Sequence record: OZ346203.1
Direction: 5' to 3' (one strand)
Length of the DNA: 48,114 nt
From: a phage
Shown here one piece after another: positions 5,383-48,114 of the stretch. Made by a program: the position numbers and the translations under genes. The notes beneath the pieces were generated by a model. The model did not search any database and had not been told where the DNA came from. It saw nothing but the letters and a program-made list of their open reading frames with translations. Within the stretch, counting starts at the first letter, position 1. Every line of letters starts with the position of its first letter.

Positions 5383-6165
5383 ATGGCTAAAGATTATTCA
5401 TCTGTTATGGGTCTTTCTTGCCCTGGTTGTTTGGTTGATTCTACTCGCTACAATATTGATGGTACTGGCGTTTGTGGTTCTGAATCGATCATTGCTGGTA
5501 AGGTTGTTTTCTTTAAGGAGAGAATCGGCGGTTACAACATATTTGTTGACCACAAAGAGGAGGACGCTGTGGTTGCGGGTGTTGCGCTAAGGAGCAACAT
5601 AACAACGACAGTTAACGAGGAAGACGGGTATTCCGACTACAAGGAAGGAGACTCCATCAACATTTTGACAAGAGGTGTTGTATGGTGTGTAACTCAAACA
5701 ATTGAATCTCCCCCTGAGCATGGGGATCTTGTTTATGTTAACAATGATGGTTTTGTAGCAAAGAGTGATGGCGATGAAATCGTCGATGGCTGGATTTTTA
5801 CTGGTGACTTCTACAAGTTTGATGAAACAATAAACATAGTAGGAGTAAGGATAACGCCGCTTCATCATAGAAAATACCTTCTTACTGGTGCGATTATTGA
5901 GGCTGAAAATGGATACATAGAGGGCACAGAGACGATCAATAACGTTCAATTAAAGGTAACGGTTGTTCCGACTTGGGCTGATGACAAAACGGGTCAGTGG
6001 ACAATTACAAATCCACAAGATCCAAAGGTTGCCAGTGTTAGCCGCACAGGTCTTGTTGTTCCTACTGGTGTAGGAGGCAGAGTTAATGTCAACTGGACTG
6101 CTAATGATGGTTCTGGAGTTGCTGACCAGTTTGATATTGTATTTAAGAAAACCGCTGGCGCATAA
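5383..6165 (+). CDS. putative capsid-associated structural/decoration protein, paralog B with C-terminal extension
   Basis: 260 aa; N-terminal two-thirds paralogous to 4823-5332; extra beta-rich C-terminal domain. Confidence 0.4.
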   Translation: MAKDYSSVMGLSCPGCLVDSTRYNIDGTGVCGSESIIAGKVVFFKERIGGYNIFVDHKEEDAVVAGVALRSNITTTVNEEDGYSDYKEGDSINILTRGVVWCVTQTIESPPEHGDLVYVNNDGFVAKSDGDEIVDGWIFTGDFYKFDETINIVGVRITPLHHRKYLLTGAIIEAENGYIEGTETINNVQLKVTVVPTWADDKTGQWTITNPQDPKVASVSRTGLVVPTGVGGRVNVNWTANDGSGVADQFDIVFKKTAGA

Positions 6166-6192
6166 CTGATAGCATAAAAAAACATTGCACGT

Positions 6193-6209
6193 TTAACAAA
6201 AAGTGCTAT
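6193..6209 (+). promoter_or_regulatory. reverse-oriented copy of the conserved element (TTAACAAAAAGTGCTAT) upstream of major capsid gene
   Basis: same 17-mer as the early promoters but in opposite orientation to the downstream gene; followed by terminator and RBS. Confidence 0.35.
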
Positions 6210-9906: not shown

Positions 9907-9947
9907 ATTCCTGTAAAATCAATCTATCAAATAAATTAATTCCACTT

Positions 9948-9964
9948 TTAACAAAAAGTGCTAT
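9948..9964 (+). promoter_or_regulatory. reverse-oriented copy of the conserved element abutting the RBS of chaperone G
   Basis: TTAACAAAAAGTGCTAT immediately followed by AAGGAG and ATG 9979. Confidence 0.35.
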
Positions 9965-15901: not shown

Positions 15902-18900
15902 ATGGCTAAACATATGATAAGCGGCAGTAAGGGCGGAAGCAAAAAGCCATACGTGCCAAAAGAGATGGAAGATAACCTGATCTCGATAAACAAGATTAAA
16001 GTTTTGCTGGCTGTATCTGATGGCGAGTGCGATCCAGATTTCACGTTGCGTGATCTTTATCTTGATGATGTTCCTGTAATTGCCAGCGATGGCACTGTTA
16101 ACTATGAGGGGGTAACGGCTGAATATAGGCCAGGCACACAGACGCAAGATTACATCCAGGGGTTTACTGACACATCAAGCGAGGTGACAGTTTCGCGAGA
16201 TATTACAGCAGACAATCCCTATATTATCTCTGTAACAAACAAAAATCTTTCCGCAATCAGAATCAAGATTCTGATGCCAACTGGCATAAAACAGGAGGAT
16301 AACGGCGATCTTGTTGGTGTAAGGGTTCAATATGCCGTAGATATGGCTGTTGATGGCGGTTCTTATAACGAGGTTATGAGAGATGTAATTGACGGCAAGA
16401 CAAGATCAGGGTATGACCGCAGCAGAAGGATTGATCTTCCTAAGTTTGAGGAGCGCGTTTTAATCAGAGTTAAGCGACTGACTCCAGATAGCACATCTTC
16501 AAAGGTGACTGATAAAATCAAACTGCAAAGTTACGCTGAGGTTGTGGATGCAAAATTCCGTTATCCTCTGACTGGACTTGTATTCGTAGAATTTGACAGC
16601 GAATTGTTTCCTACGCAAATCCCTAACATTTCTATAAAAAAGAAATGGAAGATTATTAATGTGCCAAGCAACTACGATCCAATATCAAGAGAATATCACG
16701 GGTCATGGGATGGTACTTTTAAAAAAGCGTGGTCAAATAATCCTGCATGGGTTCTTTATGATCTGGTGACGAATCAGCGTTATGGACTTGACCAGCGAGA
16801 GTTAGGAATACAGATCGACAAGTGGAGCTTATACGAGGCAGGTGTTTACTGTGATCAGAAAGTTCCAGACGGCAAGGGCGGGACAGAGCCTCGCTACCTA
16901 TGCGATGTGGTGATCCAGAATCAAGTAGAGGCTTATCAGCTAATCCGTGACATTTGCTCAATCTTTCGCGGAATGAGCTTTTGGAATGGAGAGAGCTTAT
17001 CAATCGTGATTGATAAACCGCGCGATCCATCATACGTGTTTACTAATGAAAACGTCATCAACGGTGATTTTCAGTACACAGCAGCAAGCGAAAAAAGCAT
17101 GTACACGCAATGTAATGTGACGTTTGACGACGAACAAAACATGTATCAACAGGACGTCGAGGGTGTTTTTGATACTGAGGCGGCATTACGATTTGGATAC
17201 AATCCAACAAGCATTACAGCGATCGGGTGTACACGCAGGAGCGAAGCGAATCGTCGCGGTCGGTGGGTTTTGAAAACAAACCTTAGAAGCACTACTGTAA
17301 ACTTTGCTACTGGACTGGAGGGGATGATTCCATCAATAGGTGATGTGATTGCTATCGCTGATAATTTTCAGAGCAGCAACCTAACGTTAAACCTATCGGG
17401 CCGAGTGATGGAAGTTTCAGGATTGCAGGTTTTCGTTCCGTTTAAGGTTGATGCTCGTCCTGGTGATTTTATTATCATCAACAAGCCGGACGGCAAGCCA
17501 GTTAAGCGAACGATCTCAAAGGTGAGCGCAGACGGAAAAACCATTGAGTTAAATATTGGATTTGGTTTTGATGTTAAGCCTGATACTGTTTTTGCGATTG
17601 ACCGTACTGACCTTGCGTTGCAGCAATACGTTGTGACAACTATCAGCAAGGGTGATGACGAAAACGAGTTTACCTTTTCAATCACGGCTGTGGAGTACGA
17701 TCCGAACAAATACGACGAGATTGATTATGGCGTAAACATTGATGACAGGCCAACTTCAATTGTTCAGCCTGACGTGATGGTAGCGCCTGAGAACGTGCAG
17801 ATCTCTTCTTATTCTCGCGTCGTGCAGGGTGTAAGCGTTGAAACTATGGTTGTGTCGTGGGATAAAGTGCCTTATGCATCGCTGTATGAAATGCAGTGGC
17901 GTAAAGGTGATGGAAACTGGCTGAATACACCACAGACCGCAAACAAAGAAGTTGAGGTTGAAGGTATTTATTCAGGTAACTACCAAGTAAGGGTGAGATC
18001 TGTTTCTGCTTCCGGTTCTACGTCGCCGTGGTCAAAGATTGCAACCGCCACCCTGACAGGTAAAGTTGGCGAGCCAGGAGCGCCGATTAATCTTACAGCT
18101 TCTGATAATGAAGTTTTTGGCATTCGTGTTAAATGGGGTATGCCGGAAGGATCAGGCGATACGGCTTACATTGAGCTTCACCAATCGCCGGATGGGACGG
18201 TGGAAAACTCAAGTTTGCTTACGCTGATCCCGTATCCTCAATATGAGTATTGGCATAGCACGTTACCAGCGGGTCAAGTTGTATGGTATAGAATCCGTAG
18301 CGTTGACAGGATCGGCAACGTTTCCGGCTGGACTGACTTTGTTCGCGGCATGGCGTCAGATGATGTTGAATCTGTTTTAGGCGACATTCTGGACAAGATT
18401 TTTGATACCGAAGCGGGTCAAGAAATCAAAGAGAACGCCATAGACAGTGCAAACAAAATCAAAGACCAGGCGCAATCAATCATCCAGAACGCATTGGCAA
18501 ACGATGCCGATGTGAAGTGGACGCGAGTACAAAACGGAAAGCGTAAGGCTGAATATGGTCATGCACTGGAGCTTATTGCTACCGAAACGGAGGCGCGAGT
18601 AACTCAAATCGAAGAGTTAAAGGCGTCAATTGATGAAGATATAGTTTCAAGTATCAAAACCGTTCAGGAAGCGATTGCCAACGAATCAGAGACGCGAGCT
18701 ACTCAAGTGCAGCAGCTTGATTCTAAATTTACGAAGGAAATAGACGGCGTAAAACGAGATACGGCTGCAAGTATTGGCGAGGTAAGGCAAACAATTGCCA
18801 ATGAATCAGAAGCGCGCGCCCAGGCAGTTCAGCAGCTTGACGCCAAGTTTACGAAAGAGATAAACGACCTTGACGAAGTTATCAAGACCGAAGTCGAGGC

Positions 18901-19480
18901 TAACATCTCAGAAGTGAAACAGGCGATCGCTAATGAGACAGAGGCGAGGGTTCAGGCTGACCAGGCTTTAACAGCCAAATTCGGAGACGTTGAATCAGCA
19001 CTAGCCGAAAAACTTGATTCGTGGGCTAACGTTGATTCGGTTGGCGCTAAGTACGCTATGAAATTGGGCCTTACTTACAAGGGACAGAAGTACAGCGCAG
19101 GAATGATCATGCAGTTGTCGCAATCTTCTCAAGGCTTGATCTCGCAAATCTTGTTTGATGCTAACAGGTTCGCGATCATGACTAGCTCTACTGGCGGAAC
19201 GTTTACTTTGCCTTTCGTTGTTGAAAACAACCAGGTTTTCATTAACAGCCTGCTAGTGAAAAACGGGTCCATTACTAACGCAATGATTGGTAACGTGATT
19301 CAGTCAAATAACTTTGTTCAGAATCAGCAAGGATGGAGGCTTGATAAAAATGGTAACTTTGAGAACTACGGAACGAGAGCGGGGGAAGGTGCTACAAAAT
19401 TCACTAACGAAGGATTAAAGGTGAAAGATGCAAATGGACAATTGAGGGTTGAAATAGGGAGAATAACCGGAAGTTGGTAA
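15902..19480 (+). CDS. central tail fibre / host specificity protein J
   Basis: 1192 aa from ATG 15902; N-terminus resembles lambda J; fibronectin-III-like region; imperfect C-terminal repeats. Confidence 0.85.
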   Translation: MAKHMISGSKGGSKKPYVPKEMEDNLISINKIKVLLAVSDGECDPDFTLRDLYLDDVPVIASDGTVNYEGVTAEYRPGTQTQDYIQGFTDTSSEVTVSRDITADNPYIISVTNKNLSAIRIKILMPTGIKQEDNGDLVGVRVQYAVDMAVDGGSYNEVMRDVIDGKTRSGYDRSRRIDLPKFEERVLIRVKRLTPDSTSSKVTDKIKLQSYAEVVDAKFRYPLTGLVFVEFDSELFPTQIPNISIKKKWKIINVPSNYDPISREYHGSWDGTFKKAWSNNPAWVLYDLVTNQRYGLDQRELGIQIDKWSLYEAGVYCDQKVPDGKGGTEPRYLCDVVIQNQVEAYQLIRDICSIFRGMSFWNGESLSIVIDKPRDPSYVFTNENVINGDFQYTAASEKSMYTQCNVTFDDEQNMYQQDVEGVFDTEAALRFGYNPTSITAIGCTRRSEANRRGRWVLKTNLRSTTVNFATGLEGMIPSIGDVIAIADNFQSSNLTLNLSGRVMEVSGLQVFVPFKVDARPGDFIIINKPDGKPVKRTISKVSADGKTIELNIGFGFDVKPDTVFAIDRTDLALQQYVVTTISKGDDENEFTFSITAVEYDPNKYDEIDYGVNIDDRPTSIVQPDVMVAPENVQISSYSRVVQGVSVETMVVSWDKVPYASLYEMQWRKGDGNWLNTPQTANKEVEVEGIYSGNYQVRVRSVSASGSTSPWSKIATATLTGKVGEPGAPINLTASDNEVFGIRVKWGMPEGSGDTAYIELHQSPDGTVENSSLLTLIPYPQYEYWHSTLPAGQVVWYRIRSVDRIGNVSGWTDFVRGMASDDVESVLGDILDKIFDTEAGQEIKENAIDSANKIKDQAQSIIQNALANDADVKWTRVQNGKRKAEYGHALELIATETEARVTQIEELKASIDEDIVSSIKTVQEAIANESETRATQVQQLDSKFTKEIDGVKRDTAASIGEVRQTIANESEARAQAVQQLDAKFTKEINDLDEVIKTEVEANISEVKQAIANETEARVQADQALTAKFGDVESALAEKLDSWANVDSVGAKYAMKLGLTYKGQKYSAGMIMQLSQSSQGLISQILFDANRFAIMTSSTGGTFTLPFVVENNQVFINSLLVKNGSITNAMIGNVIQSNNFVQNQQGWRLDKNGNFENYGTRAGEGATKFTNEGLKVKDANGQLRVEIGRITGSW
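18600..19020 (+). repeat. imperfect in-frame repeats in J C-terminal region
   Basis: recurring IANESE(T/A)RA.QVQQLD.KFTKEI units at protein level. Confidence 0.5.
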
Positions 19481-20672: not shown

Positions 20673-20703
20673 CTTCAATACTCCTTAGTTGTTGTTGGCT
20701 GTA

Positions 20704-20746
20704 ACTATACACGATCCGACAAGCTGGGTTTAGCAAAAAGTGCTAC
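20704..20746 (-). promoter_or_regulatory. promoter-like module upstream of cor operon (element variant GTAGCAC-TTT-TTGCTA, 21-bp spacer, TATAGT)
   Basis: TATAGT 20704-20709 on the minus strand, 31 nt upstream of cor ATG. Confidence 0.5.
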
Positions 20747-21116
20747 ATGTTATTTTTTGTTTTACAGTGTTATCTGATTTAAGACGGCGTAAATTTAGCG
20801 CAAATTTTATCCAACATAAGGGCAATAAACAATCAATAAAATAGATATATACATATAAAATCAATAGTTTATTTATGTATGTATGTATATTTGTTTTTTC
20901 TTGTTATCTGTGTTTCTTGTGGTTTTGGTTGTTTGTGGTGATTTTTCTTTCTGAGTATCTGTATGTGCCATCATTCATGTGTATGTATATAATCCGGCGT
21001 ATCTGAGAGAACAAGGGAACAAGAAAAATAACACATATTAATCATTAACTTACGTGTCAGATTTGTTTTCTTGCCATCTGAGAACGTTTAGAAAACAGAA
21101 AAAAACAAAACAACTA

Positions 21117-21144
21117 TTGACTAAATCAACCAAATGGCTACAAT
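21117..21144 (+). promoter_or_regulatory. sigma70-type promoter (TTGACT, 16 bp, TACAAT) for exo-erf-ssb operon
   Basis: near-consensus hexamers; ATG at 21175. Confidence 0.6.
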
Positions 21145-21174
21145 GCACGCACAAAGCAACTAGGAGCATTAAAG

Positions 21175-22230
21175 ATGAGTGATTTTAACGCCTACACTAG
21201 CGAAGAAATGAGCAATGAGCTTTATCATGATCCTAACGCGTGGACGGCTGAATACGTCAGCGGTTCCAGCTTGGCGGAGATTTACAGCACGTGCCCGGCG
21301 TACTGGAAGTACAAGCCTCGCCAGGAAACTAAGGCACTTGTTTTCGGTACGCAGTCGCATACCAATTTTGAAAGCAAGGAGTTATTCGAAAAAACATATC
21401 GCCGCGCACCGTCGCAGGATGATTTTAAAGATCTGATCACAAGTCAAACGGCGTTGGCCTCAAAGCTGAAATCTTTTGGCCTGAAAGGTACAACTGGTAA
21501 GCAATACCCCGAATTGCTGGAAATGCTGTACAAGTGCGGTGAGGATCTCAATGTATGGTGGCTTATCGAAATGATGGCAGAATGCCAGGCCGCAGCGGAC
21601 GGCGTGCAGCTAATCGACGCGAAAGATTATGATGCCTGTGTAGCGATGCGGCGAGTACTTGAGGCAATACCTGAGCATAATGCTTGCATGAATAGCCCAA
21701 CCGCGCAGCGTGAAATGTCAATATTCGGGATCATCAATGGCGTAAAAGTTAAAGTGCGCCTTGATCACGTTGACGTAAACAAGGATGTAAAGGCCACAAT
21801 CATTAACGGTTACGACGAAAAAGGCCGACCGATTTATGAAGAAGTCATCTATCCAGAAGCTGTGATTATCACTGACTATAAAACAACGGTTAGCGCAAAT
21901 CCGGTTGACTTCCAGCGCCTGGCTTACAATCACGGCTATTATCTCAAAATGGCTTTGCAGCATGATTTATTTAAAAAGGCGTATCCAGACGAGGAAAGGC
22001 CAGTAATTGTGAGATTGCTTGCTCAAGAGAAGAAAGAGCCTTACTTGCCGCTCGCATTCCGAATGAACATTGAGCAATTGAAGATCGGTCGCATCCAGTA
22101 CATGAGCGTGATCAACAAGTTCAACGTTTGCCAACAGTTAGATGAATGGCCTTCGTATGCAAACGGGCAACCAGAAATTGATCTTGATACTCCTGATTGG
22201 GTACGCGCTCAATTCAGGCAGTATCTATGA
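21175..22230 (+). CDS. PD-(D/E)XK-type recombination exonuclease (RecE/RecB-nuclease-like)
   Basis: 351 aa; D...ITDYKT nuclease motif; first gene of the exo-erf-ssb operon behind a near-consensus sigma70 promoter. Confidence 0.6.
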   Translation: MSDFNAYTSEEMSNELYHDPNAWTAEYVSGSSLAEIYSTCPAYWKYKPRQETKALVFGTQSHTNFESKELFEKTYRRAPSQDDFKDLITSQTALASKLKSFGLKGTTGKQYPELLEMLYKCGEDLNVWWLIEMMAECQAAADGVQLIDAKDYDACVAMRRVLEAIPEHNACMNSPTAQREMSIFGIINGVKVKVRLDHVDVNKDVKATIINGYDEKGRPIYEEVIYPEAVIITDYKTTVSANPVDFQRLAYNHGYYLKMALQHDLFKKAYPDEERPVIVRLLAQEKKEPYLPLAFRMNIEQLKIGRIQYMSVINKFNVCQQLDEWPSYANGQPEIDLDTPDWVRAQFRQYL

Positions 22231-27210: not shown

Positions 27211-27687
27211 TTAGCTATTCGTGCTGTTATCACCTTTGTAGAATCGTCCGCCTGGTTCGTAGTCTGAATTTTTGACTACGCGCAACATTTCGTATTTGTC
27301 GCAACGGGTAGTAAGGGGCTTACCGTTAGAGTCAAACCGCAGGTCTGGACGACAAAACGAGGCGCGGTATCCTTTGCATCCATTATATTTGTAGTCGTTA
27401 TGCACTTTTTGTGCTCCGGCGGCTGAAATCATACCACGCTTTCGCCATTGGTTAACTACTTGCTGAGATACGCGCAGACGTCGAGCCATAGCAGGAACAC
27501 CGCCGTAATACTCGATCAGAATGTCAAGGCGAGATTTCAGGCTTGCTTTTACCTCATCTCGCAGGATAAGAAATCCGGTTCGGTGTTTTCGTGGCTTTTT
27601 GTCTTTACCTCGTCGCGTTCCGTTGTTACCGTTAATAGTGCGCTTGTCGATCTCACCCGTAGACACTGCAATTCGTGCATCTTTCAT
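27211..27687 (-). CDS. putative HTH DNA-binding protein (Cro/YdaS-like)
   Basis: 158 aa; GAGGTG RBS; basic N-terminus; HTH-like MARRLRVSQQVVNQWRKRG; divergent from helicase. Confidence 0.45.
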   Translation of the reverse strand: MKDARIAVSTGEIDKRTINGNNGTRRGKDKKPRKHRTGFLILRDEVKASLKSRLDILIEYYGGVPAMARRLRVSQQVVNQWRKRGMISAAGAQKVHNDYKYNGCKGYRASFCRPDLRFDSNGKPLTTRCDKYEMLRVVKNSDYEPGGRFYKGDNSTNS

Positions 27688-36680: not shown

Positions 36681-36898
36681 TTGATCCGCTCTATTGCAAC
36701 CAGAAGTCGATCAGGCTGGCGGTCGCTGTAGCATTCTCCTGTAATCCCATCCTTAAACGTAAAGTAAAGCGCCTTATGATATGAAAAACCAATCAGCCAA
36801 CCTACCGCCGTTTTTTTGATGGGCCTGACTATATCGCCAGGCTTGAAAGTCTTTGTGGTAGAATGCGTTACTTTGTAACGGTTTTCACTGTTTATCAC
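36677..36898 (-). CDS. hypothetical protein
   Basis: 73 aa; GTG start overlapping upstream stop (GTGA); no internal Met. Confidence 0.4.
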   Translation of the reverse strand: MINSENRYKVTHSTTKTFKPGDIVRPIKKTAVGWLIGFSYHKALYFTFKDGITGECYSDRQPDRLLVAIERIK

Positions 36899-40478: not shown

Positions 40479-40732
40479 TTTTTCTTCTCCTGCAATAAGC
40501 AAACATCATTGATAAAATCAGCACGGCCCTTAATGTTGCTGATGTGGAACGTCTTTTCAGCGTACAGGCCATCACCTTCAATCACGATCATTACGCGAGT
40601 CGGTTTATTCACGGGCGCACATGAAAAGAGTGGGCGCACCGGAAGAAATTTAGTAGCCACATCCAGGTTAGCCCTGGCGGCCCTGCAAAATGCCTCCGCC
40701 AGATCCAAATCATTTTCGGTAATCACCGCCAT
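40466..40732 (-). CDS. hypothetical protein
   Basis: 88 aa; translationally coupled to upstream gene. Confidence 0.45.
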   Translation of the reverse strand: MAVITENDLDLAEAFCRAARANLDVATKFLPVRPLFSCAPVNKPTRVMIVIEGDGLYAEKTFHISNIKGRADFINDVCLLQEKKKCWM

Positions 40733-41004
40733 TACTTCTTGATCTCCTCACTGATAAATTTCAGCACCTGACGCAAGAAAACTTCGTTGTTGATAGTCGC
40801 TGGCAATTCTTCCTTCACTTCTTGCGGCAGATAGATATTGCCGTGCCAGGTCAAGCAATCGTAGTTGATACGATAAGAGCAAAGCCACTCACAATCGTTA
40901 TCTGCTTCCCAAATACAGAGTTGCAGAACATCGCCAAAATCTTCAACAGTCAGATCCAGACCGTGACGCTTAGCGAAGTTGAAAGTGGTTTTGCTGATGT
41001 TCAT
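40732..41004 (-). CDS. hypothetical protein (first gene of leftward early operon)
   Basis: 90 aa; AGGAG RBS; 34 nt downstream of promoter-like element 41039-41082. Confidence 0.5.
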   Translation of the reverse strand: MNISKTTFNFAKRHGLDLTVEDFGDVLQLCIWEADNDCEWLCSYRINYDCLTWHGNIYLPQEVKEELPATINNEVFLRQVLKFISEEIKK

Positions 41005-41038
41005 TGCTATCTCCTGAGCGGTTCGTTTTGATGTGTGT

Positions 41039-41082
41039 AATGTACCCGATCAGACGGCCTGAGTTTTAACAAAAAGTGCTAT
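41039..41082 (-). promoter_or_regulatory. long-spacer promoter-like module upstream of leftward early operon
   Basis: ATAGCAC-TTT-TTGTTA, 22 bp, TACATT; ATG of 41004 gene 34 nt downstream. Confidence 0.55.
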
Positions 41083-41112
41083 TTGACGGTTAGCACCAGG
41101 ATTGTGATCGAA

Positions 41113-41201
41113 ATAATCAAAAGTAATCATTCGTAATCAAATCACGTCAAAATGATGATTTCCTTTGCAAATTTGATGAGAAAAGTAATCACGTTTAATC
41201 A
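41113..41201. repeat. phased TAATCA iteron-like array (5 direct copies at 10-bp phasing in two clusters, plus inverted TGATT copies)
   Basis: NTAATCA at about 41113, 41123, 41133, 41185, 41195; within the largest noncoding region. Confidence 0.5.
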
Positions 41202-41637
41202 TTGGTTGCAGGGGAGATAGTGAAACCTTCCCCTCTTGCCTCACTTTTCCGCCTGGCTGTCAGTGGTTGTTGTCTTTTGTTCACCCCTGTTACCGATTTC
41301 AGGCGGCGTGTTTCCGCGCGGTTTTCCGGTGTAGCGAAAACGGAAAAAACAAAAAAAATCCTATATAATACATTGAAAATAAAGATTATTTATTTATATA
41401 TATCTATAATGTTTTCTTTTTGTTCTCACTGTTACAGTGCTTTTTGTTGGTTATGGTGTGGTTGTGTGTGGGTATATATGGATAGTTGCGCGCGCTGCGG
41501 ATTGCATATGTATATATACTTTTTCCGGCGGATTGCGTTAACAGCGTGAACAGAAAAATAACAGCCCTGAAATCAACAACTTGCGCATGATTTTGTAGTT
41601 TTTCGATATTGGTAACGTTTTGAATACAACAAAAACA

Positions 41638-41665
41638 TTGACACGCACCAAATAGCTTTTATAAT
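41638..41665 (+). promoter_or_regulatory. sigma70-type promoter (TTGACA, 16 bp, TATAAT) for rightward early operon
   Basis: consensus -35 and -10; ATG at 41697. Confidence 0.65.
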
Positions 41666-41696
41666 GCGCCAACAGTCAACAACTGGAGGAAAGGAA

Positions 41697-42161
41697 ATGG
41701 AACAGAAGACCACTAAGGACTATTGCGATTGGCTTCGCGAGCTTGGTCGCCGCCTGGCTAGTGGCGATATTGAAGAGTATAAAATGTCACTAATTGACCT
41801 GGCCGGAATGTTAAGCGGTGATGACTGCTACAAGATCACGCGCAGTTCATCCTACAGCCGGACCATTATCAACCGCGTTCCAGAAGTAAGGGCCGCAGGT
41901 CGGGTAAGTATCAAGGTCGAGGAAACGGAAGATGATAAATTTTACGTTTTCCGCATGGTCCGAGAATCGAAAAGGAAAATCATCACGCCCGAAGAATTGC
42001 CAGCCATCAAGGCAAGGGCGATCAAAAAGTTTGCCGATCGCTTACTGGCAGCAATCCCGAACATCGTTGACCTGGAAGGGGATAAACTGGCTGGAGCTTG
42101 TGAGGGCGTAAGCCGCTACCAGGATATGATCCGCGAAATCATCAAAGAGGAGGAGCAATAA
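41697..42161 (+). CDS. hypothetical protein (first gene of rightward early operon)
   Basis: 154 aa from ATG 41697 with GGAGGAAAGG RBS; downstream of TTGACA-16-TATAAT promoter. Confidence 0.5.
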   Translation: MEQKTTKDYCDWLRELGRRLASGDIEEYKMSLIDLAGMLSGDDCYKITRSSSYSRTIINRVPEVRAAGRVSIKVEETEDDKFYVFRMVRESKRKIITPEELPAIKARAIKKFADRLLAAIPNIVDLEGDKLAGACEGVSRYQDMIREIIKEEEQ

Positions 42162-42700
42162 TGAAAAAATACACTTTCGAACTGTGGGGCAAGAAGTACG
42201 AATTAATCACCAGCAAGCCGATTGTTATCGTTGATCTGGATGGCACACTATCGGACGGATCGCATCGCTTGCACTTGTTGCCAACTGAAAACTTGCACCT
42301 TACCGAATCGTGGAGCGAATTTAACAGGGCCGCCGCCGGAGATTCGCCGATTAAAAGCACGATCGCAGTTATTAACGGTTTGTGGGTGTCAGGATTTGCC
42401 ATCGTCATCTTGACCGGACGCAGCGACGAGGTGCGCTACGAAACCTGCAAATGGCTTAACGAGAACGGCGTGAAGTTTGACGAAATCATCATGCGCCGCC
42501 AGGAGGACAACCGAAAGGATACGGTTATTAAAGAAGAAGCCTTGCGCGCTATTGGCCTGGACAACATTGTTTGCGCCTTTGACGATTCGCCGAACGTGGT
42601 TAAGCACTTCCGCAGCTTGGGGATCACAACCTATCAGGTCACGGAATACGACAAGCCACACGCTCACCTGCAATCTCACGGCGTGGAGTGTTTAAAATGA
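42161..42700 (+). CDS. HAD-superfamily phosphatase (nucleotidase / Pnk-phosphatase-like)
   Basis: 179 aa; HAD motif I DLDGTLSDG; TAATG overlap with upstream gene. Confidence 0.6.
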   Translation: MKKYTFELWGKKYELITSKPIVIVDLDGTLSDGSHRLHLLPTENLHLTESWSEFNRAAAGDSPIKSTIAVINGLWVSGFAIVILTGRSDEVRYETCKWLNENGVKFDEIIMRRQEDNRKDTVIKEEALRAIGLDNIVCAFDDSPNVVKHFRSLGITTYQVTEYDKPHAHLQSHGVECLK

Positions 42701-42858
42701 CTTGGTTGCTTTTAATCTTTGTCACAAGTTACAACTCCGCAGCTATTGAGTCGCAGGAGTTCCACGGCGAATCAAGATGCCAGGAAGCGCGAAAGCAAGT
42801 TATTCTCCACATGTCAGATAGCGGGAAGGATGTAACAGCGTTATGCGTTCGTAAATAG
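42697..42858 (+). CDS. small protein with signal-peptide-like N-terminus (below the ORF-track length cutoff)
   Basis: 53 aa MTWLLLIFVTSYNSAA...; ATGA overlap with upstream stop; GGAG RBS; stop TAG inside the conserved element. Confidence 0.45.
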   Translation: MTWLLLIFVTSYNSAAIESQEFHGESRCQEARKQVILHMSDSGKDVTALCVRK

Positions 42859-42897
42859 CACTTTTGCAAAAACAGATTATCGGGCTTGCGGTATAGT
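42855..42897 (+). promoter_or_regulatory. long-spacer promoter-like module upstream of 42929 gene
   Basis: ATAGCAC-TT-TTGCAA, 22-bp spacer with hairpin GGGCTT/AAGCCC, TATAGT 42892-42897. Confidence 0.5.
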
Positions 42898-42928
42898 AAG
42901 CCCATCAACAACGAACGAGGATTAAATC

Positions 42929-43192
42929 ATGGCTAACAAGATCGAGTTTTTTAAAGCGGTAGACATTATCGACGGCGCGCCTAGCTTCTTCGCTATCCAT
43001 TCTATTGACGGCAAGGATATTGGGTACAACGTCATTCGTCGAGATGGAATCTCAAAACTTAGCGACCTGGTAGGTTTTGTTGTGTCAAACGGGAAATGTG
43101 CATGGCGCGATTCGCCACGAGAGCCGCGCCGCCGCGACATGATTGATCCTGAATTACTTTACACGCTGGTAGTTGAAGGAGAAAATAAATGA
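42929..43192 (+). CDS. hypothetical protein
   Basis: 87 aa; GAGGA RBS; 31 nt downstream of promoter-like element 42855-42897. Confidence 0.5.
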   Translation: MANKIEFFKAVDIIDGAPSFFAIHSIDGKDIGYNVIRRDGISKLSDLVGFVVSNGKCAWRDSPREPRRRDMIDPELLYTLVVEGENK

Positions 43193-43374
43193 TTTGGTTA
43201 CTTGCTTTTTTGGTTGTTTTTCTTTACATTTCAGGCTTATTCACGTTCCGCGCGTTGGTGAAATATTCTGACGCGACAGACAAAGACGATAAAATCGTTC
43301 TCGCTTTCTGGTTTGTTTGGGTGTGGTTAGCAATTTACGAGATCATCAGAGACAAACATAAATTTGAGTGGTGA
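43189..43374 (+). CDS. small membrane protein
   Basis: 61 aa; two predicted TMDs; ATGA overlap. Confidence 0.5.
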   Translation: MIWLLAFLVVFLYISGLFTFRALVKYSDATDKDDKIVLAFWFVWVWLAIYEIIRDKHKFEW

Positions 43375-43430
43375 TTCTTGCTATGGCGCATTCATGAAGT
43401 GCGCCATTTTGAGAAAACCTAAAGGGGGAA

Positions 43431-43583
43431 ATGATGCGTAACTTTGAAAAAATCATTACCAAAAAGAAGCGTCGCGGGTACGATGAGCATGTGGAGCTTG
43501 TGAAAAAGCAACGCAAGAAGCGCAACGAAGACAAGAAGCGCGGGAAAAAATTTAATGCGATTTTTCGCTATGGAGATCATTAA
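43431..43583 (+). CDS. small highly basic protein (below the ORF-track length cutoff)
   Basis: 50 aa, about 40% Lys/Arg; AAAGGGGGAA RBS; preceded by hairpin; ends 2 nt before the kinase ATG. Confidence 0.45.
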   Translation: MMRNFEKIITKKKRRGYDEHVELVKKQRKKRNEDKKRGKKFNAIFRYGDH

Positions 43584-43585
43584 TC

Positions 43586-44176
43586 ATGAAACGAGACATT
43601 ATCATCCTTAATGGGCCGCCAGGTTGCGGGAAGGACACTATTGCAGCTTACCTAACGGGCCATCGTTACCCAGCGGTTAAGGCATCATTCAAGCAACCTA
43701 TGTTCGACATTGCTTTTTCTATGCTTGGCCCGACTCGATACGATGAATTTATGGGCCTATACAACGACCGAGAGCAAAAAGAAAAGCCTCAAGTTATCTT
43801 AGGTGGCAAGTCGCCTCGACAATTCATGATCTGGATTAGCGAGGATGTAATGAAGCCAGTTTTTGGAGATCACTATTTCGGGCGTCGAATGGTTGAAGAG
43901 ATTCACGAGATGTACCGAGATTTGTCGGTTGTGATCAGTGATGGCGGATTCCCCGAAGAAATCAAGCCGCTCGTTAAGGCGGGGCATGAGGTGCATATTT
44001 GCCGATTGCATCGCGACGGCTTCACGTTTGCTGGCGATTCGAGAGATTATATTGACCTGAGCGGTTATCACTATCGAATCCATCACTATGATTTCCACTT
44101 GCAGGACGGCAAGCCGGAACTGGCTGTAAGCGAGATCGTCAATGCAGTCAAATGGAAGCACACACAGATTAAATAG
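43586..44176 (+). CDS. P-loop nucleotide kinase (T4 gp1 dNMP-kinase-like)
   Basis: 196 aa; Walker A GPPGCGKDT at N-terminus; architecture resembles T4 deoxynucleoside monophosphate kinase. Confidence 0.65.
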   Translation: MKRDIIILNGPPGCGKDTIAAYLTGHRYPAVKASFKQPMFDIAFSMLGPTRYDEFMGLYNDREQKEKPQVILGGKSPRQFMIWISEDVMKPVFGDHYFGRRMVEEIHEMYRDLSVVISDGGFPEEIKPLVKAGHEVHICRLHRDGFTFAGDSRDYIDLSGYHYRIHHYDFHLQDGKPELAVSEIVNAVKWKHTQIK

Positions 44177-47509: not shown

Positions 47510-47515
47510 AAATCA

Positions 47516-47537
47516 CCCGCCGAACGGCGGGTTTTTT
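47516..47537 (+). terminator. intrinsic terminator upstream of terS promoter
   Basis: CCCGCCG/CGGCGGG stem plus T6. Confidence 0.65.
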
Positions 47538-47550
47538 ATTGCCCGTTGTC

Positions 47551-47559
47551 TGGTATAAT
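47551..47559 (+). promoter_or_regulatory. extended -10 promoter (TGgTATAAT) upstream of terS
   Basis: TGnTATAAT directly after terminator 47516-47537; no obvious -35. Confidence 0.45.
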
Positions 47560-47587
47560 CAGGAATCTAACAAAAGGAGGATTAACA

Positions 47588-48114
47588 ATGGCTAAAAACG
47601 TTGAGCCTGCTGTAAAGGCATTAAATTTCAAAGAGTTATACAATAAAACTTATGGCGATATTGTTACGCTAAACAACCGCCACAAGTACACGCCGGAACA
47701 GGTTTTTGATATGGCGATCCGCTATTTCACTTGGGCCGAAGAGAATCACATTCAGGCGGCTGAAACTGCTTCCTTTCAGGGTGACGTGTACGAGAGCAGA
47801 GTTTACAAGCCTCGCGTTTTCACGGTAAACGGATTCAGCTTGTATCTCGGCGTGACTGAGGCGGCTGTAAGCAAATGGCGTAAAGAGCCTGGATTCTGCG
47901 ATGTGATGGAGTTTGTTGATAAAGTAATTTACGAGCAAAAATTCCAGCTTGCGGCAAATAACATGATTAACGCTGGATTTATCGGTAAAGAGATCGGAGT
48001 AGAGAAGCCAGCAACAGTGAGCGTTGAAGCGAGCGCGGCAGCTAATGCAAGCATTGACGCAGTAACTGCCGATGAGGTGAAAGAGGCTGTGATTGATATT
48101 CTGGAGCAACTTTA
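47588..48114 (+). CDS. terS: terminase small subunit (putative), 3' end completed by wrap-around to nt 1
   Basis: AAAGGAGG RBS; open through window end for 175 codons; last two bases 'ta' plus nt 1 'a' give TAA overlapping terL ATG. Confidence 0.6.
   Translation, partial: MAKNVEPAVKALNFKELYNKTYGDIVTLNNRHKYTPEQVFDMAIRYFTWAEENHIQAAETASFQGDVYESRVYKPRVFTVNGFSLYLGVTEAAVSKWRKEPGFCDVMEFVDKVIYEQKFQLAANNMINAGFIGKEIGVEKPATVSVEASAAANASIDAVTADEVKEAVIDILEQL

What the first reader, a model, noticed from the sequence alone, without database searches (positions are those of the whole stretch)
41005..41696. Largest noncoding region: phased TAATCA iteron-like array, structured GC segment, AT-rich tract and consensus promoter
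About 690 bp without a credible ORF lie between divergent early operons. It contains five direct NTAATCA copies at exact 10-bp phasing in two clusters (41113-41139 and 41185-41201) with inverted TGATT copies between them, nested inverted repeats (GGGGA/TCCCC about 41211-41233, CCGCCTG/CAGGCGG about 41253-41309, TTTTCCG/CGGAAAA about 41318-41345), an AT-rich tract (about 41345-41420) and a near-consensus sigma70 promoter (41638-41665). Iterons plus an adjacent AT-rich, easily melted region is the classic layout of a replication origin; an operator array or a structured ncRNA are alternatives.
Basis: partly seen in the sequence, partly recalled or inferred. Interest (0 to 1): 0.6.

Follow-up and report, generated by a model that had tools for sequence, protein, structure and literature searches.

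The report
T1-like phage packaging and early-control region
This 690-bp gene-free stretch is the conserved control hub of a T1-like coliphage; its phased TAATCA repeats sit where relatives start packaging their DNA, so they more likely mark the packaging (pac) site than a replication origin.

Summary
Five TAATCA copies (41114, 41124, 41134, 41186, 41196) form the strongest hexamer cluster in the genome, and 0 of 200 genome shuffles match it. The region is non-coding, the AT tract is 88% AT, and 41638-41665 is the genome's only perfect sigma-70 promoter.

The window is a complete Warwickvirus (Drexlerviridae) genome, and the region is a composite:
- a promoter of the family's 21-nt-repeat class for the leftward operon;
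- a short-repeat zone (TAATCA here);
- a ~400-bp module of phased TGTT/AACA triplets, a TATATA tract, an IHF site and the strong promoter, duplicated at 20.7-21.15 kb.

The AT tract therefore exists without TAATCA, which breaks the proposed "iteron + AT-rich" unit.

Genome ends of relatives all fall in the homologous short-repeat zone, at window-equivalent ~41150-41250. These are the T1 terminal repeat, TLS restriction mapping, MSK and SU57 read-based termini, and the Rtp record start. A TGATT/AATCA core is enriched there in the other lineages.

Best reading: pac recognition array beside the packaging cut (~0.45). Rivals: operator array (~0.28), origin iterons (~0.12), ncRNA (~0.03). Nothing was measured in this phage. 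An origin role for the duplicated module is not excluded.

The parts
41039..41082 (-). Leftward promoter of the Drexlerviridae 21-nt-repeat (DR) class: DR core ATAGCACTTTTTGTTAAAA at 41064-41082, -10-like TACATT at 41039-41044, inferred start near 41032. It drives the operon beginning at ATG 41004.
   Evidence: Exact match to the published TLS consensus. There are 18 DR matches in the window against 2.4 expected. A -10-like hexamer lies 19+-1 nt after the repeat in 83 of 94 copies in five genomes, against about 17% in random controls.
41114..41139 (+). Left TAATCA cluster: three direct copies at exact 10-bp phase. This is the lineage-specific DR-proximal array position.
   Evidence: The same position holds TATTCC/GGAATA in T1, MatMar, pSf-1, BEK7, aalborv and STSR3; TAGACCGATTGGTC x2 in TLS; and ATTGCA/TGCAAT in MSK, SU57 and Rtp.
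41140..41185 (.). Spacer between the clusters, with AATCA (41140), TGATGATT (41153-60), TTGATGAG and a relaxed IHF-like match (41148-41160, minus strand). T1 record position 1 aligns here, at about 41155-41167.
   Evidence: Local alignment of the T1 junction to the window. T1 terminal repeat is annotated from base 1. IHF-like scan.
41186..41201 (+). Right TAATCA cluster: two direct copies at 10 bp. It corresponds to the TAATCA/TGATTA-type site kept just before the G-rich hairpin in Hanrivervirus and MatMar.
   Evidence: AATCA/TGATT is the most enriched of 512 pentamer pairs in the pac-proximal 200 bp when five lineages are pooled (24 observed vs 5.4 expected). It ranks second when the window is left out (17 vs 4.4).
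41150..41250 (+). Inferred packaging-initiation (pac cleavage) zone; packaging would proceed rightward.
   Evidence: Projected from relatives. T1 position 1 maps to about 41155-41167. TLS position 1 (restriction-mapped zone) maps to about 41200. The MSK PhageTerm start at 36,862 maps to about 41220-41232. The SU57 terminus lies 20 nt further right. The XY3 record (98% identical) is opened at 41219/41220. Rtp is opened in the same array zone. Not measured in this phage.
41210..41234 (.). G-rich hairpin AGGGGA/TCCCCT, conserved mainly as sequence in Tempevirinae and T1.
   Evidence: There is no clear covariation, and the fold z-score of the surrounding 150 nt is unremarkable.
41268..41291 (+). 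TGTT triplet A (41268, 41278, 41288), 10-bp phased, flanked by CCGCCTG/CAGGCGG. This is the first element of the duplicated module.
   Evidence: There are 5 phased TGTT triplets in the genome against 0.08 expected, and 4 of them lie in the two modules. MatMar and pSf-1 show the same at both loci. Position relative to the strong promoter is fixed at about -370/-360/-350.
41345..41420 (.). AT-rich TATATA tract (88% AT), the most AT-rich spot in the genome.
   Evidence: A paralogous tract lies at 20820-20895. TATATA peaks at both loci in all five genomes examined. It is conserved at 80-85% in distant genera.
41410..41476 (+). TGTT triplet B (41410, 41421, 41430), followed by a G/T-rich stretch (33 of 37 bases are G or T) and a small hairpin at 41427-41439.
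41540..41583 (+). AACA triplet C (41540, 41549, 41560), inverted relative to triplets A and B, then a full IHF consensus AATCAACAACTTG at 41571-41583.
   Evidence: inverted repeat I1; one of 5 IHF consensus sites in the genome. An IHF-like element lies at -66 to -80 from the -35 hexamer in 8 of 15 module copies.
41638..41696 (+). Consensus sigma-70 promoter TTGACA-16-TATAAT (41638-41665) with an A-rich upstream stretch, then the leader and ribosome-binding site for the first rightward gene (ATG 41697, DUF7174).
   Evidence: Equivalent strong promoters are found in all relatives and in the paralogous module (TTGACT-16-TACAAT at 21117-21144).
20690..21175 (.). Paralogous copy of the module in a second divergent intergenic region (lipoprotein gene leftward, exonuclease VIII gene rightward): minus-strand DR at 20728-46, TGTT triplets at 20748/58/68 and 20892/902/911, a TATATA tract, AACA repeats and a strong promoter.

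Best explanation
The region is the conserved 'left-end' control hub of T1-like phages. It has three juxtaposed functions.

1. At its left edge, a promoter of the family-specific 21-nt-repeat class fires leftward.

2. Next comes the packaging-initiation (pac) zone. The five TAATCA hexamers are spaced one helical turn apart in a 3+2 arrangement. They are most likely the recognition array on which the P22-gp3-type small terminase oligomer (47588 to the window end) assembles. That assembly would position the large terminase to make the first cut of a concatemer somewhere in about 41150-41250. Headful packaging would then run rightward through the early genes.

3. The right two-thirds is a separate ~400-bp module: phased TGTT/AACA triplets, the genome's most AT-rich tract, an IHF site and the strongest sigma-70 promoter. 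It drives the rightward early operon and is duplicated upstream of the recombination genes.

Shown: the repeats and their non-randomness; the composite, duplicated architecture; the positions of mapped genome ends in relatives.

Inferred: that the ends fall at the same place in this phage; that TerS is the protein reading TAATCA; the cutting mechanism.
For: The array is non-random.

Five independent placements of genome ends or pac in relatives fall in the homologous short-repeat zone, between the 21-nt repeat and the AT tract:
- T1: the record is opened 162 bp right of the leftward ATG, with terminal repeat 1-2800.
- TLS: a pac-HindIII fragment of about 5.88 kb, with a HindIII site at 5876.
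- MSK: PhageTerm start at 36,862, forward, p=1.6e-9. This is 222 bp right of the leftward ATG.
- SU57: PhageTerm plus a coverage step, 20 nt from the MSK position.
- Rtp: the record is opened in the same array.

XY3, which is 98% identical here, is opened at 41219/41220.

AATCA/TGATT is the top pentamer pair of 512 in this zone across lineages, and second when the window is excluded. The copies flank the mapped end in T1 (-28, -4, +26, +47). In MSK there are three before and two after the cut.

The layout parallels the P1 pac site, which has seven TGATCA/G hexamers split 4+3 around an IHF site and the cut.

TerS belongs to the GP3_package family of headful terminases.

The neighbouring genes do not track the array, so a local regulator encoded next door is unlikely.
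Against: - No terminus data exist for this phage or any TAATCA-type relative. The XY3 start may be arbitrary.
- The basis for T1 position 1 could not be read because the paper is not held. TLS position 1 was chosen by motif inside a restriction-mapped zone. The MSK record is flagged UNVERIFIED.
- TerS identity and its putative helix-turn-helix segment follow phylogeny and do not co-vary with the array type. T1, pSf-1 and MatMar share TATTCC/GGAATA but differ in that segment.
- The core motif is on the opposite strand in the window (AATCA) compared with T1, TLS and MSK (TGATT).
- In MatMar and pSf-1 the core enrichment is weak, 6 observed vs 2.2 expected.
- The left cluster sits at about -82 to -107 from the inferred leftward transcription start, a position that also suits a transcription factor.
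Confidence: 0.45

Rival explanations
1. Operator or enhancer array. The TAATCA hexamers bind a phage or host transcription factor that times the divergent promoters, activating or shutting off the leftward 21-nt-repeat promoter and/or early rightward transcription. Packaging would be initiated nearby through other sequences.
For: The left cluster lies directly upstream (about -82 to -107) of the inferred leftward start. DR-proximal arrays are lineage-specific cassettes of dyad or direct repeats, typical of regulator sites. A conserved Cro/YdaS-like regulator exists at 27214-27687. TerS does not co-vary with array type.
Against: No protein co-varies with array type in six genomes, including the Cro-like regulator and both adjacent genes. 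The other roughly 15 repeat-class promoters have no such arrays. The array does not overlap any core promoter element. Mapped genome ends coincide with this zone.
Confidence: 0.28
2. Replication origin. TAATCA copies are iterons for a phage initiator, and the nearby AT-rich tract is the unwinding element.
For: The repeats are phased and direct. The most AT-rich DNA of the genome lies within 155 bp, between divergent promoters that would drive negative supercoiling. No origin is known for T1-like phages.
Against: The AT tract is part of a module duplicated at 20.8 kb without any TAATCA array, and it has its own flanking TGTT repeats. The array is replaced by unrelated motifs in sister lineages although the replication proteins are conserved. 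There are no DnaA boxes. No Rep/O-type origin-binding initiator domain was detected in the proteins scanned. A GC-rich 140-bp segment separates the array from the tract.
Confidence: 0.12
3. Structured non-coding RNA transcribed from the GC-rich, inverted-repeat segment (about 41200-41575).
For: Nested inverted repeats and a 25-nt long-range complementarity, 41410-34 with 41539-63.
Against: There is no Rfam match at gathering score or at E<=1 apart from two chance snoRNA hits. Fold z-scores are -0.32, -1.28, -1.52 and -1.60. The long-range complementarity is explained by inverted TGTT/AACA site triplets that recur as motifs, not as compensatory pairs. No canonical sigma-70 match of at least 10/12 lies upstream of the segment; only a weak 9/12 match at 41090-41117 does.
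Confidence: 0.03

Closest known systems
pac region of coliphage T1 and relatives (TLS, Rtp, MSK, SU57)
   Same: Same genomic position: the large intergenic region between the divergent leftward and rightward small-gene operons. Same order of elements: 21-nt repeat, short-repeat zone, G-rich hairpin, AT-rich tract, strong promoter. The TGATT/AATCA core is enriched around the mapped ends. The terminase is of the same P22-gp3 type.
   Different: The hexamer here is TAATCA, as direct repeats on the opposite strand. It also occupies the DR-proximal array position, where T1 has TATTCC/GGAATA, TLS has TAGACCGATTGGTC and Rtp-like phages have ATTGCA/TGCAAT. In the literature I could reach, the recognition sequence of a T1-like pac is assigned only by motif: TLS by resemblance to the P22 pac, and T1 as 'ATATA repeats' at second hand.
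Bacteriophage P1 pac site
   Same: Short hexamers (TGATCA/G in P1, TAATCA here, one base different) lie in two clusters (4+3 in P1, 3+2 here), around or beside the cleavage zone, with an IHF site between the clusters in P1. A relaxed IHF-like match lies between the clusters here.
   Different: The hexamers here have no GATC, so Dam-methylation control as in P1 is not possible. The site is intergenic, not inside a terminase gene. The terminase is unrelated (P22 gp3 type rather than PacA/PacB). The IHF match is relaxed only.
Iteron-type origins (lambda ori, plasmid iteron origins, P4 ori/crr)
   Same: Phased short direct repeats near an AT-rich tract. The duplicated module (two copies about 20 kb apart) recalls the two-site P4 ori/crr arrangement (P4 details are from memory, not verified here).
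   Different: No Rep/O-type initiator was identified. The TAATCA array and the AT tract are separable units. The P4 iteron TGTTCACC occurs only twice in the genome. There are no DnaA boxes.
Drexlerviridae 21-nt intergenic direct repeat (TLS paper, PMC11447400)
   Same: The copy at 41064-41082(-) matches the published consensus exactly and lies upstream of a start codon in the direction of transcription.
   Different: The paper leaves its function open. Here a -10-like hexamer at a fixed 19-nt distance marks it as a promoter class.

Membership tests
Headful pac site (terminase recognition plus first-cut region) | Coincides with the unique end of the first headful in virion DNA | tested here: inconclusive
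   Met in relatives at the homologous position: T1 record and terminal repeat, TLS restriction map, MSK and SU57 read-based termini, Rtp record start. No reads or terminus data exist for this phage.
Headful pac site (terminase recognition plus first-cut region) | The genome encodes a headful-type small and large terminase | tested here: met
   TerS at 47588 to the window end hits Pfam GP3_package at E=4e-11. TerL starts at base 1. Orthologues are annotated as terminase in T1, TLS, atuna and MatMar.
Headful pac site (terminase recognition plus first-cut region) | Small terminase binds the repeats specifically | not testable with these tools
   The indirect co-variation test was negative: TerS follows phylogeny, not array type.
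Headful pac site (terminase recognition plus first-cut region) | The fragment is sufficient to direct packaging or transduction of foreign DNA | not testable with these tools
   Requires a plasmid transduction assay.
P1-type pac site | Two clusters of a repeated hexamer around or beside the cleavage zone | tested here: inconclusive
   The 3+2 TAATCA clusters are 46 bp apart. Only the T1-projected end (about 41155-41167) falls between them. The TLS, MSK, SU57 and XY3 projections (about 41200-41250) fall at or to the right of the right cluster.
P1-type pac site | Hexamers contain GATC, so cleavage is Dam-regulated | tested here: not met
   TAATCA has no GATC. Only two GATC sites lie in the whole region, at 41048 and 41106.
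P1-type pac site | IHF site between the clusters | tested here: inconclusive
   Only a relaxed match (AATCATCATTTTG, 41148-41160, minus strand) is present. The full consensus site lies elsewhere, at 41571-83.
Iteron-type replication origin | Iterons directly adjoin an AT-rich unwinding element and act with it as one unit | tested here: not met
   For TAATCA: the tract is 155 bp away across a GC-rich segment, and it recurs at 20.8 kb without TAATCA. The TGTT triplets, by contrast, do flank the tract at both loci.
Iteron-type replication origin | A cognate initiator protein is encoded by the replicon | tested here: inconclusive
   Only a primase (Zn_Ribbon_Prim), a DUF3987 helicase and an SF2-type helicase were found. 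No Rep/O-like initiator was recognised. The TLS paper also reports none.
Iteron-type replication origin | Host initiator sites (DnaA boxes) | tested here: not met
   No TTWTNCACA or relaxed match in 41005-41696.
Iteron-type replication origin | Supports initiation of replication in vivo | not testable with these tools
   Needs marker-frequency or plasmid amplification assays.
Sigma-70 promoter | TTGACA and TATAAT hexamers separated by 16-18 bp, upstream of a gene | tested here: met
   12/12 match with a 16-bp spacer at 41638-41665, 32 nt before ATG 41697. It is unique in the genome and conserved in relatives.
Drexlerviridae 21-nt intergenic repeat | Match to aaATAGCACnnnTTGnTAAAA, oriented with transcription, upstream of a start codon | tested here: met
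   Exact match at 41064-41082(-), with its proximal end 60 nt upstream of ATG 41004.
Known RNA families (Rfam 15) | Covariance-model match at gathering score | tested here: not met
   No hit in the window. Only two chance-level snoRNA matches at E 0.35-0.6 in the region.

The most novel reading that the evidence does not exclude
The ~400-bp module is the long-sought replication origin of T1-like phages. It consists of 10-bp-phased TGTT triplets flanking the genome's two most AT-rich tracts, an inverted AACA triplet, a positionally conserved IHF site and an outward-firing strong promoter. It is present twice per genome, at 41.26-41.67 kb and 20.74-21.15 kb. It would work by factor binding at the TGTT sites plus transcription-driven negative supercoiling between divergent promoters. 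One copy would be fused to the pac site, so that replication initiation, early transcription and packaging initiation share one hub.
Probability: 0.22. Interest if true: 0.65.

Novelty: new member of a known kind. Interest (0 to 1): 0.42.

Why it matters
T1-like phages (Drexlerviridae) are ubiquitous laboratory and industrial contaminants, generalized transducers and therapy candidates. Their pac recognition sequence and replication origin are still undefined. The 2024 TLS paper assigns pac only by resemblance to P22, reports no iterons, and lists the 21-nt repeat as an open question.

This analysis does three things:
- It narrows pac to a zone of about 100 bp with a concrete candidate motif (the AATCA/TGATT core, TAATCA x5 here) that can be tested with one plasmid-transduction experiment.
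- It shows that the proposed 'origin' is really a separable, duplicated module with its own phased repeats.
- It gives the 21-nt repeat a promoter-like signature.

A defined pac signal would allow phagemid or packaging-signal engineering, and prediction of transduction, for this family.

Tried and rejected
1. Phylogenetic profiling for a protein that co-varies with array type. I used six whole genomes (window, atuna | MatMar, pSf-1, T1 | TLS). There was no clean candidate. The one hit, a 297-aa ORF, is also present in the TAATCA-type phage FritzSarasin. TerS and the Cro-like regulator simply follow phylogeny.

2. P4 alpha-type iterons. An exact TGTTCACC at 41278 looked suggestive, but the octamer occurs only twice in the genome. 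The P4 motif could not be verified in the literature, so I dropped it.

3. TGTTAY as a specific 6-mer site. It is not concentrated in the modules except in pSf-1. Only the phased TGTT core is significant.

4. Structured RNA. Rfam and folding z-scores were negative.

5. Small proteins. Some GenBank records annotate 3 to 5 small ORFs here, but none has coding signatures.

6. Host-factor sites. No DnaA boxes and no GATC enrichment.

7. IMG/VR search with the flanking protein returned only 2 loci, so the comparative work used GenBank phages.

8. The T1 (Roberts 2004) and Rtp (Wietzorrek 2006) genome papers are not held. How T1 position 1 was fixed, and the 'five ATATA repeats' pac proposal, are therefore known only at second hand.

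9. No paper on XY3 was found to explain its record start.

10. No transcriptome or origin-mapping study of a T1-like phage was found.
Full report
**What the window is.** The 48,114-bp window is a complete, circularly closed genome of a T1-like coliphage (Drexlerviridae, Tempevirinae, Warwickvirus). The region plus its flanks is 98-99% identical to JLBYU19, SECphi27, FritzSarasin (Bas04), tonijn and others. TerL begins at base 1, and a P22-gp3-type TerS (Pfam GP3_package) runs from 47588 into the window end. The finding lies between the first gene of a leftward operon (ATG 41004) and the first gene of a rightward operon (ATG 41697, DUF7174).

**Check of the observation.**
- TAATCA occurs on the + strand at 41114, 41124, 41134, 41186 and 41196.
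- It is the highest-ranking cluster of any hexamer in the genome. None of 200 dinucleotide-preserving genome shuffles produced any hexamer with 5 copies in 100 bp and three exact 10-bp spacings.
- The inverted repeats are at the stated places.
- The 41345-41420 tract is 88% AT and contains the most AT-rich 60-bp window of the genome.
- TTGACA-16-TATAAT at 41638-41665 is the only 12/12 sigma-70 match in the genome.
- The region is non-coding. Its ORFs hit no PHROG family. Nearly all indels against MatMar and atuna are not multiples of three, and substitutions are evenly spread over codon positions.

**The region is a composite, not one element.** Three observations change the picture.

First, its left edge carries a minus-strand copy (41064-41082) of the 21-nt intergenic repeat described for TLS and T1, aaATAGCACnnnTTGnTAAAA. 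In five genomes, 83 of 94 copies are followed at a fixed 19+-1 nt by a -10-like hexamer, against about 17% in random controls. The repeat therefore behaves as a promoter class with a 22-nt spacing, too long for a normal -35/-10 pair. Here it would start the leftward operon near 41032.

Second, the right two-thirds (about 41260-41665) has a paralogue at about 20740-21150, in the other large divergent intergenic region, between a lipoprotein gene and exonuclease VIII. Both copies share a fixed geometry relative to a strong promoter:
- a TGTT triplet at 10-bp phase (41268/78/88; 20748/58/68);
- a TATATA tract;
- a second TGTT triplet (41410/21/30; 20892/902/911);
- a G/T-rich stretch and a second TATATA run;
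- an inverted AACA triplet (41540/49/60);
- an IHF-like site;
- an A-rich stretch and the promoter.

Phased TGTT triplets number 5 in the genome against 0.08 expected, and 4 of them lie in the two modules. MatMar and pSf-1 show the same at both loci. The two modules hold the two most AT-rich windows of the genome. Hence the AT tract does not need the TAATCA array.

Third, the short-repeat zone between the 21-nt repeat and the G-rich hairpin differs by lineage:
- TAATCA x3 in 61 Warwickvirus records, all at least 94% identical;
- TATTCC...GGAATA in T1, Hanrivervirus, STSR3 and even the congeneric MatMar;
- TAGACCGATTGGTC x2 in TLS;
- ATTGCA/TGCAAT in MSK, SU57 and Rtp.

A TAATCA/TGATTA-type site just before the hairpin, and more generally a TGATT/AATCA core, is shared.

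**Where genomes of relatives begin.**
- The T1 RefSeq record is opened inside the homologous region, 162 bp right of the leftward ATG, and annotates 1-2800 as the terminal repeat. A local alignment anchored on the 21-nt repeat, AATAATCA, TGCAA-TTGATG-GA and the G-rich hairpin puts T1 base 1 at about window 41155.
- The TLS paper mapped pac by restriction analysis to about 5,882 bp from a HindIII site. The record has HindIII at 5876 and starts 195 bp right of the leftward ATG, in a TGATT/GATTT-rich run. The exact base was picked by resemblance to the P22 pac.
- For the Rtp-like phage MSK, PhageTerm gave a forward headful start at 36,862. In the sequence this is 222 bp right of the leftward ATG, 156 bp right of the repeat core and about 133 bp left of the AT tract. 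That corresponds to window 41220-41232.
- The SU57 terminus, chosen from PhageTerm plus an abrupt coverage change, lies 20 nt from the MSK position in the aligned sequence.
- Rtp is opened in the same array, 90 nt to the left.
- XY3, 98% identical to the window here, is opened at 41219/41220.

All of these project onto 41150-41250, beside or between the TAATCA clusters.

**The motif across lineages.** In the 200 bp right of the 21-nt repeat, AATCA/TGATT is the most enriched of 512 pentamer pairs when five lineages are pooled (24 observed vs 5.4 expected). It ranks second without the window (17 vs 4.4) and first in T1+TLS. The copies flank the mapped ends in T1 (-28, -4, +26, +47). In MSK three precede and two follow the cut. 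The window's array is therefore an extreme, regularised form of a family-wide feature of the pac zone. Its layout parallels P1 pac, which has seven TGATCA/G hexamers in a 4+3 arrangement around an IHF site and the cut. Unlike P1, the hexamer here has no GATC.

**Most likely mechanism (inferred).** A TerS oligomer binds the hexamers, which all face one side of the helix. TerL makes the series-initiating cut within roughly 41150-41250. Headful packaging then proceeds rightward, as in T1 and MSK. I put about 0.8 on pac lying in this region and about 0.45 on TAATCA being its recognition element.

Weak points:
- There are no terminus data for this lineage.
- The T1 and TLS start bases are imprecise or chosen by motif.
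- TerS and its putative helix-turn-helix segment do not co-vary with array type.
- The motif orientation is reversed relative to T1, TLS and MSK.
- The left cluster is also well placed (-82 to -107) to act on the leftward promoter.

**Rivals.**
- An operator or enhancer array (about 0.28) fits the lineage-specific cassettes and the position upstream of the leftward promoter. But no regulator co-varies, and the other repeat-class promoters lack such arrays.
- A structured RNA (about 0.03) has no support.

**What is not excluded.** The duplicated module itself could be an origin. It has phased repeats flanking the most meltable DNA, an IHF site and divergent transcription. The literature reports no origin or iterons for T1-like phages. 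Equally, it may be only an upstream promoter or bending region. I give the origin reading about 0.22.

**Verdict.** The origin interpretation is not supported for the TAATCA array. The best reading is the pac zone of a T1-like phage next to a duplicated early-promoter module. This is a new member of a known kind, of moderate interest because it makes the undefined T1-family pac signal, and possibly the origin, directly testable.

Noticed in passing
window-wide: 1566(+), 6191(-), 9946(-), 20728(-), 26138(+), 27699(+), 30188(+), 31258(+), 34500(-), 36662(-), 37336(-), 39254(-), 39760(-), 41064(-), 44173(+), 45467(+): The Drexlerviridae 21-nt repeat is followed at a fixed 19+-1 nt by a -10-like hexamer in 83 of 94 copies across five genomes (control about 17%). 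The spacer is often a GC-rich palindrome. This marks it as a promoter class with a non-canonical 22-nt spacing, probably dependent on a phage factor. The TLS paper lists its function as an open question.
   Followed up: partly
window 20690-21175: A second large divergent intergenic region carries a paralogue of the 41260-41665 module: phased TGTT triplets, a TATATA tract, AACA repeats, an IHF-like site and the promoter TTGACT-16-TACAAT upstream of exonuclease VIII. It is conserved in Warwickvirus, Hanrivervirus and Tlsvirus, with an AT-rich counterpart in T1.
   Followed up: partly
window 6191-6209(-) and 9946-9964(-): Two copies of the 21-nt repeat lie antisense to the + strand structural-gene block. 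The reported rule is that the repeats point in the direction of transcription. They could be antisense promoters or decayed copies.
   Followed up: no
window 41697-42161: The first rightward gene (DUF7174, phrog_4841) is only 29% identical in atuna, which is otherwise 95-100% identical genome-wide. The intergenic DNA right of about 41450 is swapped along with it, which indicates a recombination boundary inside the region.
   Followed up: partly
window 47588-48114 and 1-1569: The window is a complete circularised genome. The TerS stop overlaps the TerL start across the window ends (TAATG). A terminator-like hairpin and a TATAAT box lie just upstream of TerS, around 47510-47560.
   Followed up: partly
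L025 (tunus MN850638) 385-687; also SLUR29: Some close relatives carry an extra 303-nt leftward gene (VOG7190) inserted between the region and the homologue of gene 40732-41004. This accounts for the 388-bp length difference in the BLAST hits.
   Followed up: partly
window about 42160-43600 vs L001 11081-11974, MatMar 42961-43854, pSf-1 18262-19155: The window lacks an 894-nt early gene (297 aa, unknown function) that FritzSarasin, MatMar and pSf-1 carry. This probably accounts for part of why this genome is about 3 kb shorter than its relatives.
   Followed up: no
MatMar 41089-41722 (L014); also vB_Eco-B1.2, KMB46, tunus OR912983: Several GenBank records annotate three to five 'hypothetical proteins' inside this intergenic region. 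Codon-position and indel analysis indicates these are over-predictions.
   Followed up: yes
L004 (T1) 121-150, 190-215, 400-430: The T1 version of the region holds further short tandem families (GATTACGATTACG; AAATTACGCC x2; CGATTAACA x3 with a 9-nt period) and a second minus-strand 21-nt repeat at 104-120, to the right of record position 1.
   Followed up: no
window 41571-41583; relaxed copies in 8 of 15 module sequences: A full IHF consensus (AATCAACAACTTG), one of five in the genome, lies 55-67 bp upstream of the -35 of the strong promoter. It is positionally conserved in orthologous and paralogous modules.
   Followed up: partly
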